Virus record (IMG/VR): IMGVR_UViG_2531839235_000014
DNA length: 10,051 nt
Source of the DNA: a virus
Taxonomy: Duplodnaviria > Heunggongvirae > Uroviricota > Caudoviricetes
Strand: one strand, 5' to 3'
Part shown: positions 8,399 through 9,185 of the stretch, piece by piece
How the letters are laid out: the number at the start of each line of letters is the position of its first letter
How positions within the stretch are numbered: the stretch's first letter is position 1
Notes under the pieces: generated by a model
Database searches by the model: none
Told to the model about the DNA's origin: nothing
The model's input: the letters and a program-made list of their open reading frames with translations, nothing else
Program-made: the position numbers and the translations under genes

Positions 8399-9185
8399 CC
8401 AGTCTCCCCGAATTACTCATTTCATGCAGCGATGACACGATGTCACTGACAGGCGTAACAACGCCCCGACGCTGGCTGGTCAGAATATCGGTTTCAGCTC
8501 TGAGTTTATCTCTGGCGGCGTTGATTCTTTCCCGGTCAGCACGAAGTTTTGGTGCTGTCTCAGCCAGGACGTCCAGCGTCAGCAATGAGCGTTCAATTGA
8601 CTCGATACGGGCAATATTCCGGTCAAGGGCCTGTTCAGCTTTGAGTATTTTGTCGTAAAGAGCAACACGGGTTTCCACGTCAGTTGCCTCTTCCAGGTCG
8701 GCGAACATCCCTTTAAGTGCCTTAGTTACTGAAAGTGCGCGGGCCCGGGTGAACACCAGTTCATCGAACAGCACCATGTCGGACGCATCATCCATGAGGT
8801 TATCTGCCTCAAGATACTTCGCATATCCACGGTGTCTTACGGCGTGGGTGTTTCGCTGAGAAAAAGCGTTTGAAGGTGGTAAAAGTCGGGAACCACGAAT
8901 CCGTTTCGTTTCTGCCGAATTTGCGCAGTTTTTTTCAGAGTTTTTTGCGCATTTTTCATCGCCGGAACCCGCGTCATTGCAGGGTTCTTCATCTGAGATG
9001 TCATGATCGATTTCATGATCGGTTTTATGATCAATTTCATGATCGATTTTGCCCATTTTTATACGGGTTCTGGCGGTGTTGTAATTAATCTTTTTCTTCC
9101 GGCACCAGTCCAGTAATGTTATTCCCGTTTCGGCATGTTCGCGTCGGAATGCCTGCTCCAGCTTTTTCCAGTCCAGCTTTGCCAT
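8379..9185 (-). CDS. terS: Terminase small subunit, 268 aa
   Basis: First gene of the operon, overlapping the large terminase start by 20 nt. The N-terminus (MAKLDWKKLEQAFRREHAETGITLLDWCRKKKINYNTARTRIKMGK) looks like a helix-turn-helix DNA-binding domain, followed by a low-complexity repeat linker and a helical C-terminal domain. No strong Shine-Dalgarno sequence was seen upstream of the ATG at 9185. Confidence 0.72.
   Translation of the reverse strand: MAKLDWKKLEQAFRREHAETGITLLDWCRKKKINYNTARTRIKMGKIDHEIDHKTDHEIDHDISDEEPCNDAGSGDEKCAKNSEKNCANSAETKRIRGSRLLPPSNAFSQRNTHAVRHRGYAKYLEADNLMDDASDMVLFDELVFTRARALSVTKALKGMFADLEEATDVETRVALYDKILKAEQALDRNIARIESIERSLLTLDVLAETAPKLRADRERINAARDKLRAETDILTSQRRGVVTPVSDIVSSLHEMSNSGRLDDIPEE
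8998..9045. repeat. Four tandem copies of a 12-bp unit (consensus ATTTCATGATCG) inside the terS coding sequence
   Basis: Plus-strand units are ATGTCATGATCG, ATTTCATGATCG, GTTTTATGATCA and ATTTCATGATCG. Each contains a GATC, at 9005, 9017, 9029 and 9041. They encode the tetrapeptide repeats IDHE-IDHK-TDHE-IDHD in the small terminase. Confidence 0.9.

What the first reader, a model, noticed from the sequence alone, without database searches (positions are those of the whole stretch)
8998..9045. Phased GATC-bearing 12-bp tandem repeats inside the small terminase gene: candidate pac site or variable linker
Four tandem 12-bp units, each with a Dam GATC site at 12-bp spacing, lie within terS and encode a (I/T)DH(E/K/D) tetrapeptide repeat. 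A second low-complexity repeat (KCAKNSEKNCANSAE, encoded around 8900-8950 with repeated TTTTGCGCA motifs) lies just upstream in the protein. In several headful-packaging phages, P22 among them, the pac recognition site lies inside the small terminase gene, so a repeated DNA motif here is a plausible terminase recognition element. Alternatively it is a slippage-prone region that varies the length of the terS linker between related prophages. A cluster of Dam sites could also couple packaging recognition to methylation state.
Basis: partly seen in the sequence, partly recalled or inferred. Interest (0 to 1): 0.6.

Follow-up and report, generated by a model that had tools for sequence, protein, structure and literature searches.

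The report
Candidate Stx-phage pac site in terS
Four evenly spaced GATC-containing repeats inside the small-terminase gene of a Shiga-toxin phage are most likely the site where the phage's packaging enzyme recognises its own DNA, built like the known packaging site of phage P1, although no experiment has yet shown this.

Summary
Four 12-bp units, each carrying TGATC(G/A), lie at 9004-9045 inside terS (8379-9185, minus strand) of a 933W-type Shiga-toxin phage.

They encode IDHEIDHKTDHEIDHD in a predicted disordered linker directly after the N-terminal helix-turn-helix domain.

This layout matches the phage P1 pac site, which has TGATCA/G hexamers inside pacA and is Dam-regulated. The TerS N-terminus is weakly but reciprocally homologous to PacA.

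In about 45 homologous terS genes, the same stretch (gene nt ~130-300) always carries an array of a short motif. The motif changes with the type of N-terminal domain: TGCGCA, YGATCA, TTCGCA, GGTACGCA or GACGGA.

Most non-GATC arrays occur in two or three reading frames. All far exceed synonymous-codon shuffles, so they are DNA elements rather than peptide repeats.

The GATC array and its distinctive helix-3 residues (RT[RQ] instead of RR[YH]) occur together on two different gene backbones.

Copy number varies from 1 to 7 units, with 4 dominant.

Best reading: this is a TerS recognition (pac) array, and it is also slippage-prone. Three limits apply:
- No virion-end data exist.
- The synonymous test on the GATC array itself is not significant.
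- P1's second hexamer cluster and IHF site are absent.

The parts
8379..9185 (-). terS, the small terminase subunit (268 aa, equal to 933W L0112)
   Evidence: ORF found and translated. It is 100% identical to the annotated terS of Stx phages and matches phrog_370 'terminase small subunit' at E 3.8e-125.
9051..9185 (-). Coding region for the N-terminal three-helix (HTH-type) DNA-binding domain, aa 1-45
   Evidence: The AlphaFold2 model has helices at 6-20, 24-30 and 35-41 with pLDDT 76-89. hhalign to P1 PacA residues 3-44 gives E 8.5e-5 and probability 60%. Weak PHROG hits run in both directions: the window TerS matches the PacA family phrog_1711 at E 3e-5, and PacA matches phrog_370 at E 1.9e-4.
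9063..9083 (-). Helix 3 (aa 35-41, YNTARTR), the putative recognition helix. Residues T40 and R41 co-vary with the repeat motif.
   Evidence: Helix placement. Among 99 full-length cluster representatives, AR[TI][RQ] goes with D[HQ] (GATC-type) repeats, ARR[YH] with A[QH] (TGCGCA-type), and AKR[HY] with SQ (TTCGCA-type). This segment is 81% identical to the Salmonella GATC type but only 41-59% identical to TGCGCA types.
8868..9050 (-). Coding region for the disordered linker (aa 46-106), which carries both repeat arrays
   Evidence: pLDDT is below 50 for residues 46-106.
8997..9049 (.). The array of four 12-bp units. TGATC(G/A) hexamers lie at 9004-9009, 9016-9021, 9028-9033 and 9040-9045, and each contains a Dam GATC site. 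This is the proposed TerS recognition (pac) array.
   Evidence: GATC sits at gene nt 142, 154, 166 and 178, the same positions as in a Salmonella relative. This is the position that holds the motif arrays in all relatives.
9050..9055 (.). Degenerate hexamer: TGGGCA on the coding strand, TGCCCA on the + strand. It sits where relatives keep TGCGCA, at gene nt 131.
   Evidence: Repeat family D3. Alignment with Salmonella, Citrobacter and PhiR12_3. Positions.
8920..8956 (.). Second array, with TGCGCA at 8922-8927 and 8946-8951 in the reading frame TGC-GCA = Cys-Ala. It is either a retained part of the ancestral TGCGCA array or a second arm of the site.
   Evidence: The same 'NCA/KCA' hexamer is kept in many enterobacterial relatives (E. 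coli, Salmonella, Citrobacter, Serratia, Yersinia, Dickeya). In this gene alone the count is not significant: 2 observed against 0.7 expected, 104 of 1000 shuffles.
9268..9278 (.). Solitary copy of the repeat unit (TGATCGATATT), 87 nt upstream of the terS start codon. Whether it belongs to the site is unknown.
   Evidence: Repeat family D1, matching 10 of 11 bases. It is present in 933W-type loci but absent upstream of the Salmonella relatives.
6692..8398 (-). terL, the large terminase. It overlaps terS by 20 bp and would make the cut at or near the site.
   Evidence: ORF. PHROG terminase large subunit families matched. The literature calls this clade '933W-type headful' (PMC7317114).
4548..6692 (-). 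P22-like portal, part of the headful packaging machinery
   Evidence: Pfam PF16510 at E 8e-127.

Best explanation
The four phased TGATC(G/A) units are the recognition array of the packaging (pac) site of 933W-type Shiga-toxin phages. The two downstream TGCGCA hexamers may also belong to it.

The array is embedded in the part of terS that encodes a disordered linker, directly after the N-terminal helix-turn-helix domain. The proposed mechanism is as follows. N-terminal domains of the oligomeric small terminase bind successive units on concatemeric DNA. This places the large terminase to make the first cut nearby. Headful packaging then runs towards terL, which is leftwards in the window. The peptide (I/T)DH(E/K/D) is a tolerated by-product of the DNA motif.

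Because the units are perfect 12-bp tandem copies, they also slip, which gives alleles of 1 to 7 units.

Because each unit is a Dam site, recognition or cleavage is probably sensitive to methylation state, as it is at P1 pac.

Shown here: the anatomy, the homology of position, DNA-level selection of the equivalent arrays in relatives, co-variation with the N-terminal domain, and the copy-number polymorphism.

Inferred: TerS binding, the cut position, the packaging direction and the Dam dependence.
For: 1. Same architecture as the experimentally defined P1 pac. In pacA, the HTH-coding part (aa 3-44) is followed by four TGATCA hexamers that encode MIIDHSNDQHAGDH, then the annotated cleavage sites, then further TGATC(A/G). 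PMC10028697 summarises P1 pac as 161 bp with seven TGATCA/G hexamers and Dam control, and reports that synonymous recoding of the hexamers lowers P1 titre about 9-fold.

2. The N-terminal domain of TerS is weakly but reciprocally related to that of PacA. BLASTP gives E 0.009, hhalign gives E 8.5e-5, and PHROG cross-hits run in both directions.

3. In about 45 homologous terS genes, the stretch at gene nt ~130-300 always holds 3-8 copies of a short motif that is almost absent from the rest of the gene and its flanks.

4. TGCGCA occurs in all three reading frames, as xAQ, [VM]Rx and CA. It is observed 5-7 times (3 in the short Xenorhabdus genes) against 0.3-1.3 expected under synonymous-codon shuffling. 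No shuffle of 1000 reaches the observed count in 25 of the 26 loci with TGCGCA arrays. TTCGCA, GTACGC, GGTACG, GACGGA and P1's own TGATC behave the same way.

5. The motif tracks the N-terminal domain:
- ARR[YH] goes with TGCGCA (83 of 99 representatives).
- AR[TI][RQ] goes with GATC-type repeats (8).
- AKR[HY] goes with TTCGCA (8).
- Three unrelated or swapped N-domains have three other motifs.

6. The helix-3 segment plus GATC array sits on two different backbones. Over nt 1-99, 933W is closest to the E. coli TGCGCA type (85%) and the Salmonella GATC type is closest to the Citrobacter TGCGCA type (87%). Over helix 3, the two GATC types are 81% identical to each other and 41-63% identical to the TGCGCA types.

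7. Across the 933W and Salmonella units, YGATCA is invariant in 12 of 12 units, while the encoded residues vary (I/T/S/N, then D, then H/Q, then E/K/D/N).

8. The repeats lie in a segment predicted to be disordered, with pLDDT below 50 for aa 46-106.

9. The array is the only GATC cluster in about 40 kb of this phage type.

10. 933W carries its own Pfam Dam-family methyltransferase.

11. Headful-type machinery is present: a P22-like portal and a '933W-type headful' TerL (PMC7317114).
Against: - There is no direct evidence of binding, cleavage or virion ends for any member of this TerS family. The one PhageTerm run on a near-identical phage returned 'Mu-like' (PMC7946995).
- The synonymous-shuffle test on the GATC array itself is not significant: 5 observed against 2.97 expected, with 316 of 2000 shuffles reaching the observed count. 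Any xDHx peptide gives GATC about half the time.
- The four units are recent duplicates, so their identity is not independent evidence.
- P1's second GATC cluster is missing. The next GATC is 228 bp away.
- No IHF consensus occurs anywhere in the window.
- P1's helix (NTARRYL) resembles the TGCGCA-type helix yet goes with TGATCA. There is therefore no simple residue-to-base code.
- Alleles with one or two units exist, although they were seen only as single partial proteins.
- According to a review, TerS-pac binding in vitro has been weak or non-specific in other pac phages (PMC9611059).
Confidence: 0.6

Rival explanations
1. The array is a neutral coding minisatellite. The 12-bp array is only a slippage-prone stretch in a disordered linker that tolerates any length. 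It has no role as a DNA site, and the pac site of 933W-type phages lies elsewhere or is not sequence-specific.
For: Copy number varies from 1 to 7 units among near-identical phages. The linker is predicted to be disordered. GATC is not more frequent than synonymous shuffles of the same peptide allow. The units are near-identical and therefore young.
Against: This reading does not explain why every relative has a motif array at the same place. It does not explain why those arrays are held at synonymous sites and in several reading frames. It does not explain why the motif changes with the N-terminal domain, or why helix 3 and the GATC array travel together across backbones. Four units is strongly modal: about 370 of 387 complete E. 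coli genome records (the remaining 17 have 3 units) and 37 of 38 IMG/VR contigs.
Confidence: 0.2
2. The array is a regulatory site rather than a packaging site. It is bound by TerS or by host GATC-binding proteins (SeqA on hemimethylated DNA, Dam) to control terS/terL expression or replication timing, and it does not start packaging.
For: Four GATC sites at 12-bp spacing form the kind of cluster that SeqA binds when hemimethylated (my own knowledge of oriC/SeqA, not tested here). The array lies within the first 190 nt of the first gene of the packaging/morphogenesis cluster in the window. The co-variation with the HTH would also fit autoregulation.
Against: Most relatives have non-GATC motifs (TGCGCA, TTCGCA, GGTACGCA), which SeqA and Dam cannot read. 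A host-factor reading therefore cannot explain the family-wide pattern. No promoter-like or terminator-like element overlaps the array. The protein whose domain co-varies with the motif is the packaging-specificity subunit.
Confidence: 0.1
3. The function is at the peptide level. The (I/T)DH(E/K/D) repeats act as protein, for example as an Asp/His metal-binding or TerL-contact segment, and the DNA repeat is only their coding.
For: Asp-His repeats can chelate metals (general chemistry, not tested). Asp is invariant in all units.
Against: The homologous position in relatives encodes chemically unrelated peptides (SAQK, VRK, NSQIR, GTQ). Within the GATC type, His alternates with Gln while GATCA stays fixed. 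The segment is predicted to be disordered. In relatives the same hexamer is read in three frames.
Confidence: 0.05

Closest known systems
Phage P1 pac site (HEX4/HEX3 arrays of TGATCA/G inside pacA, with cleavage controlled by Dam methylation)
   Same: Both lie inside the small-terminase gene, directly 3' of the HTH-coding part. Both have the hexamer TGATC(A/G), four copies in the first cluster, encoding D-H or D-Q dipeptides. The N-terminal domains are weakly homologous. Both phages encode an adenine methyltransferase: a Pfam Dam-family enzyme in 933W and, from my own knowledge, Dmt in P1.
   Different: The 933W type has a single, strictly 12-bp-phased tandem cluster. P1 has two irregular clusters of 4 and 3 flanking the cut. 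No IHF consensus is found in the window. Three of the four hexamers read CGATCA on the coding strand. The downstream arm, if there is one, is TGCGCA rather than GATC. Copy number is polymorphic. Function is untested.
pac sites of P22 (a 22-bp site in gene 3) and SPP1 (pacL/pacR around gene 1)
   Same: The packaging recognition site lies in or next to the small-terminase gene of a headful phage (PMC9611059). The window also has a P22-like portal.
   Different: P22 pac is a single asymmetric 22-bp sequence, not a repeat array. There is no sequence or TerS family relationship: the window TerS has no Pfam hit.
Phage lambda cosB (repeated R elements bound by the gpNu1 HTH, plus an IHF site)
   Same: In concept it is similar: several copies of a short element read by the N-terminal HTH of the small terminase position the large subunit for cutting (my own knowledge, not tested here).
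   Different: Lambda is a cos phage. Its R sites lie upstream of Nu1, not inside it. The protein family is different, and there are no GATC sites.
Coding tandem repeats that vary by slippage (contingency-type loci)
   Same: The unit is in frame at 12 bp, and alleles of 1 to 7 units occur among near-identical genomes.
   Different: One allele (4 units) dominates. No phase-variable phenotype is known. The repeat occupies a position that holds DNA-selected motif arrays in all relatives.

Membership tests
P1-type pac site | Lies inside the small-terminase gene, just downstream of the part that encodes the N-terminal DNA-binding domain | tested here: met
   The array is at gene nt 141-183, and the HTH helices end at aa 41. 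In P1 the hexamers start at pacA nt 194, after the HTH at aa 3-44.
P1-type pac site | Several copies of the hexamer TGATC(A/G), each carrying a Dam GATC site | tested here: met
   Three TGATCG and one TGATCA at 9004-9045.
P1-type pac site | Two hexamer clusters (4 and 3) flanking a central cleavage region of about 90 bp | tested here: not met
   There is only one GATC cluster. The nearest other GATC sites are at 9269 and 8096. The stretch 50-80 bp downstream holds two TGCGCA instead.
P1-type pac site | IHF binding site next to the cut | tested here: not met
   The pattern WATCARNNNNTTR has no match in the window on either strand. This is a consensus scan only, so a weak or atypical site is not excluded.
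P1-type pac site | Small terminase homologous to PacA | tested here: inconclusive
   Only the N-terminal ~45-100 residues match: BLASTP E 0.009, hhalign probability 60% and E 8.5e-5, reciprocal PHROG hits at E 3e-5 and 1.9e-4. The C-terminal parts are unrelated.
P1-type pac site | Cleavage by the terminase at the site, dependent on adenine methylation | not testable with these tools
   This needs virion-end mapping and dam-minus or methylase-minus experiments. The only context available is that 933W L0094 is a Pfam PF05869 Dam-family enzyme.
Headful (pac) packaging phage | Headful-type large terminase and portal, and no cos site | tested here: inconclusive
   The portal is P22-like at E 8e-127. 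The literature calls the TerL clade '933W-type headful' (PMC7317114), and a relative's record annotates it as 'T4-like headful'. GenBank notes on related phages call the genome circularly permuted. No ends were measured here.
Motif arrays embedded in terS genes of the phrog_370 family (defined here) | Cluster of three or more copies of one short motif at gene nt ~130-300, nearly absent from the rest of the gene | tested here: met
   The window has four GATCA at nt 142-178 and none elsewhere in the gene. Relatives are shown.
Motif arrays embedded in terS genes of the phrog_370 family (defined here) | Motif kept at synonymous positions or in several reading frames (DNA-level selection) | tested here: inconclusive
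   This is met for the TGCGCA, TTCGCA, GTACGC, GGTACG and GACGGA arrays (0-2 shuffles of 1000-2000 reach the observed count). It is not significant for the GATC arrays of the window or of Salmonella (112 to 426 of 2000), and all their units are in one frame.
Motif arrays embedded in terS genes of the phrog_370 family (defined here) | Motif type co-varies with the N-terminal domain or helix 3 | tested here: met
   The partition is perfect in 99 representatives. Motifs per domain type are shown. The mosaic pattern is shown.
Slippage-variable coding repeat | In-frame unit with copy-number differences among close relatives | tested here: met
   One unit (P0020), 2 (P0016), 3 (L002), 4 (window), 5 (P0025, L058) and 7 (P0001/L039).

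The most novel reading that the evidence does not exclude
Small terminases of this family, and of the related PacA family, write their own recognition site into the linker-coding part of their own gene. The N-terminal domain and the embedded motif array evolve and recombine as one specificity module. At least six natural specificities exist: TGCGCA, YGATCA, TTCGCA, GGTACGCA, GGTACGAA and GACGGA. The Stx-phage lineage switched the hexamer core from CG to AT together with two helix-3 residues (RR[YH] to RT[RQ]). That switch would make packaging initiation readable by Dam methylation, as in P1. If true, pac sites and packaging specificity, and hence which phages, satellites and plasmids can be mobilised by Stx phages, could be predicted from sequence.
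Probability: 0.35. Interest if true: 0.8.

Novelty: new variant of a known kind. Interest (0 to 1): 0.62.

Why it matters
I found no paper that maps or proposes the packaging initiation site of the 933W-type Shiga-toxin phages, which are medically the most important Stx2 phages. Ten full-text searches found none, and one paper states that the differences between headful subtypes in recognising the initiation site 'remain to be unveiled' (PMC7317114).

How small terminases read DNA sequence specifically is called unclear and controversial in a 2022 review (PMC9611059).

The result here gives three things:
- a concrete site about 130 bp long to test in Stx phages;
- a natural series of matched protein and DNA-motif variants that could be used to work out TerS specificity;
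- a possible link between Dam methylation and Stx-phage particle production.

It would also help predict which DNA Stx phages can transduce.

Tried and rejected
- **Record ends as a proxy for pac.** Stx-phage GenBank records start at int/att or were re-set to start at terL. For example, PV189400 ends 20 bp before the terS stop codon, which is exactly the terL start. This is uninformative.
- **PhageTerm literature.** The only run on a near-identical phage (Lys19259Vzw) gave 'Mu-like'. This is uninformative.
- **Foldseek of the AlphaFold2 model against the PDB.** It returned only generic coiled-coil hits, none with E below 0.1. No structural family could be assigned.
- **Pfam.** There is no hit for TerS or TerL at E <= 0.01.
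- **Rfam on the whole window.** Nothing was found.
- **Promoter and terminator scan of 8700-10051.** Nothing overlaps the array.
- **IHF consensus.** There are no matches.
- **Synonymous-shuffle test on the GATC arrays.** It was not significant, so the case for the window's own array rests on homology of position, co-variation and the P1 precedent.
- **IMG/VR scan for alleles with 1-3 units.** It found none.
- **Sternberg & Coulby 1990 and the Casjens & Gilcrease methods paper.** Neither is held in the library. The P1 facts are therefore taken from the annotated P1 record and from PMC10028697.
- **A cos site in 9186-9593.** I found nothing in favour of it. That stretch contains one solitary repeat-like unit (9268-9278) and a weak promoter-like site facing bor.
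- **A universal helix-3 to base code.** Rejected, because P1 PacA has an ARRY-type helix yet uses TGATCA.
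Full report
**What the window is.** The window is the late region of a 933W-type Shiga-toxin phage (Sepvirinae) in reverse orientation. Bases 8379-9600 are 99.8-100% identical to 933W, VT2-Sakai, Stx2-86, PA2 and many other Stx phages. On the minus strand lie:
- terS, 8379-9185, 268 aa, equal to 933W L0112;
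- terL, 6692-8398, overlapping terS by 20 bp;
- a P22-like portal, 4548-6692;
- a capsid gene, 2145-3359.

The gene bor is on the plus strand at 9594-9887. TerS matches phrog_370 'terminase small subunit' at E 3.8e-125.

Tandem Repeats Finder finds a period-12 array at 8997-9049 with 4.4 copies. GATC occurs at 9005, 9017, 9029 and 9041. The peptide is IDHE-IDHK-TDHE-IDHD. On the plus strand the hexamers are TGATCG, TGATCG, TGATCA and TGATCG. GATC is depleted in the window overall (33 against 46.8 expected). The array is the only cluster of three or more GATC within 60 bp in the window and in bases 1-30000 of 933W.

**The closest precedent is P1, not P22.** In the annotated P1 record, pacA encodes an N-terminal HTH region. 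This is followed by TGATCA four times (peptide MIIDHSNDQHAGDH), an IHF site, the mapped pac cleavage positions, and then further TGATC(G/A) hexamers. PMC10028697 summarises P1 pac as a 161-bp site inside pacA with seven TGATCA/G hexamers carrying Dam sites, with methylation controlling cleavage. It also reports that synonymous recoding of the hexamers lowers P1 titre about 9-fold.

The window has the same hexamer and the same number in the first cluster. It occupies the same place relative to the HTH and yields the same D-H coding by-product.

The TerS N-terminus is weakly but consistently related to PacA. BLASTP gives E 0.009. hhalign gives E 8.5e-5 over residues 6-47 against 3-44. Reciprocal PHROG hits were also found.

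**Relatives show a conserved DNA element at this position.** A protein search gave 379 homologues. All have a low-complexity repeat straight after the HTH, but the peptide differs between groups: xDHx, xAQx, SQIR and others. I fetched DNA for about 45 of them.

In Citrobacter, Serratia, Yersinia, Brenneria, Aeromonas, Xenorhabdus and the E. coli phage PhiR12_3, gene nt ~130-300 holds 3-8 copies of TGCGCA. These occur in all three reading frames (xxT-GCG-CAx = AQ/AH; xTG-CGC-Axx = V/M-R-x; TGC-GCA = CA). The hexamer is almost absent from the rest of the gene and its flanks.

I shuffled synonymous codons within each gene, which keeps the protein and the codon usage. This gives 0.3-1.3 expected copies against 5-7 observed (3 in the short Xenorhabdus genes). 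No shuffle of 1000 reaches the observed count in 25 of the 26 loci with TGCGCA arrays. These arrays are therefore selected as DNA.

**The motif follows the N-terminal domain.**
- Genes whose helix 3 reads SSAKRYITIK have TTCGCA five to seven times.
- Two unrelated or swapped N-terminal domains have GACGGA/TCCGTC (five copies) and GGTACG (four copies).
- Klebsiella Wanchaivirus has GGTACGCA, six to eight copies in both orientations.

All of these exceed synonymous shuffles.

Among 99 full-length cluster representatives the partition is perfect:
- ARR[YH] (83 representatives) goes with A[QH] repeats;
- AR[TI][RQ] (8) goes with D[HQ] repeats;
- AKR[HY] (8) goes with SQ repeats.

The AlphaFold2 model places these residues in the third helix (aa 35-41) of a confident three-helix domain. 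It places both repeats in a segment with pLDDT below 50 (aa 46-106), ahead of a long helical hairpin.

**The GATC variant sits on two backbones.** Salmonella prophages (L036, L037) carry YGATCA five and three times at a 12-bp period. GATC falls at the same gene positions as in the window: nt 142, 154, 166 and 178. Their unit AAAAGTGATCAA is the PhiR12_3 unit AAAAGTGCGCAA with CG changed to AT.

| Segment | Pair compared | Identity |
|---|---|---|
| nt 1-99 | 933W type vs E. coli TGCGCA type | 85% |
| nt 1-99 | Salmonella GATC type vs Citrobacter TGCGCA type | 87% |
| nt 100-126 (helix 3) | the two GATC types vs each other | 81% |
| nt 100-126 (helix 3) | GATC types vs TGCGCA types | 41-63% |

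 Helix 3 and the GATC array therefore occur together on two different backgrounds.

Across the 12 units of the window and the two Salmonella loci, YGATCA is invariant while the residues vary (I/T/S/N; H/Q; E/K/D/N).

In the PacA family, D[HQ] repeats persist down to about 30% identity.

**Copy number.** Alleles with 1, 2, 3, 4, 5 and 7 units exist. Four units is strongly modal:
- 348 records at 99% identity or more, plus 22 at 95-99%, against 17 with three units, in 387 complete E. coli genome records;
- 37 of 38 IMG/VR contigs, with one carrying five units;
- about 189 against 31 in the phage collection.

**Interpretation.** The best-supported reading is that the array is the TerS recognition part of the pac site of 933W-type phages. 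It appears to be a GATC-bearing derivative of an ancestral TGCGCA array, of which two copies (8922-8927, 8946-8951) and one degenerate copy (9050-9055) remain.

The proposed mechanism is inferred, not shown. Successive N-terminal domains of the TerS oligomer would bind successive 12-bp units. TerL would cut nearby. Headful packaging would proceed towards terL.

Dam sensitivity is plausible for two reasons. It is established for the same hexamer in P1. And 933W carries its own Pfam Dam-family enzyme, L0094 (PF05869, E 1e-64). It was not testable here.

**Weak points.**
- No virion-end, footprint or genetic data exist for this family. Ten literature searches found no paper on the pac site of these phages. 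The one PhageTerm result is uninformative.
- The synonymous test is not significant for the GATC arrays themselves, because xDHx yields GATC about half the time and the units are young duplicates.
- P1's second GATC cluster and IHF site are absent.
- P1's helix is ARRY-like yet goes with TGATCA, so there is no simple recognition code.

**Verdict.** The finding is a real and interesting candidate. It is a new variant of the P1-type pac architecture in a medically important phage group. It is embedded in a wider and apparently undescribed pattern, in which small-terminase genes carry motif arrays that co-vary with their own DNA-binding domain. My confidence is about 0.6 that it is the packaging recognition site and about 0.3-0.4 that it is methylation-controlled.

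Noticed in passing
L003 (LC727840.1 and about 20 sibling Stx2a prophage records); equivalent to window ~8995-9000: In these prophages terS is interrupted right after the last repeat unit. The inserted sequence begins TGAACCGCCCCGGGTTTCCTGGAGAGTG, which from memory looks like an IS629/IS3-family end. These prophages therefore have a broken small terminase.
   Followed up: partly
window 9268-9278: A solitary copy of the repeat unit (TGATCGATATT, 10 of 11 bases matching) lies 87 nt upstream of the terS start, in the terS-bor spacer. It is present in 933W-type loci but not upstream of the Salmonella GATC-type genes. It might be a distant second arm of the site, or chance.
   Followed up: partly
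window 1-10051: GATC is under-represented in the window as a whole: 33 sites against 46.8 expected, and 199 of 200 shuffles have at least 33. This makes the cluster of four sites stand out more.
   Followed up: no
window 6692-8398 and 8379-9185: Neither TerL (568 aa) nor TerS gets any Pfam-A hit at E <= 0.01, although both match PHROG terminase families. The 933W-type terminase is poorly covered by Pfam.
   Followed up: no
L042 (Wanchaivirus PDP110P2, nt 130-296 of terS), L043 and L044 (Salmonella prophages): Distant or domain-swapped relatives carry other embedded arrays. L042 has GGTACGCA six to eight times in both orientations. L044 has GGTACGAAA three times plus one inverted copy. L043 has TCCGTC twice followed by GACGGA three times. 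Related N-domains (L042 and L044) have related motifs.
   Followed up: partly
P0121-P0169 (PacA homologues): PacA-family proteins from P1 down to Xenorhabdus plasmid-prophages (about 30% identity) all keep the helix NPNTARRYLR and D[HQ] repeats after it. This suggests that TGATCA arrays are conserved across the whole PacA family. Their DNA was not fetched.
   Followed up: no
PMC7946995, phage Lys19259Vzw (99.9% identical to the window over 8379-9600): PhageTerm classed this phage as 'Mu-like' because its termini carried host DNA. This could reflect packaging that starts on the unexcised prophage rather than transposition. It was not examined.
   Followed up: no
window 9117-9127 and 9581-9591: A perfect 11-nt inverted repeat (TGTTATTCCCG / CGGGAATAACA) brackets the terS 5' end and the bor start region, 453 nt apart. 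Its meaning is unknown.
   Followed up: no
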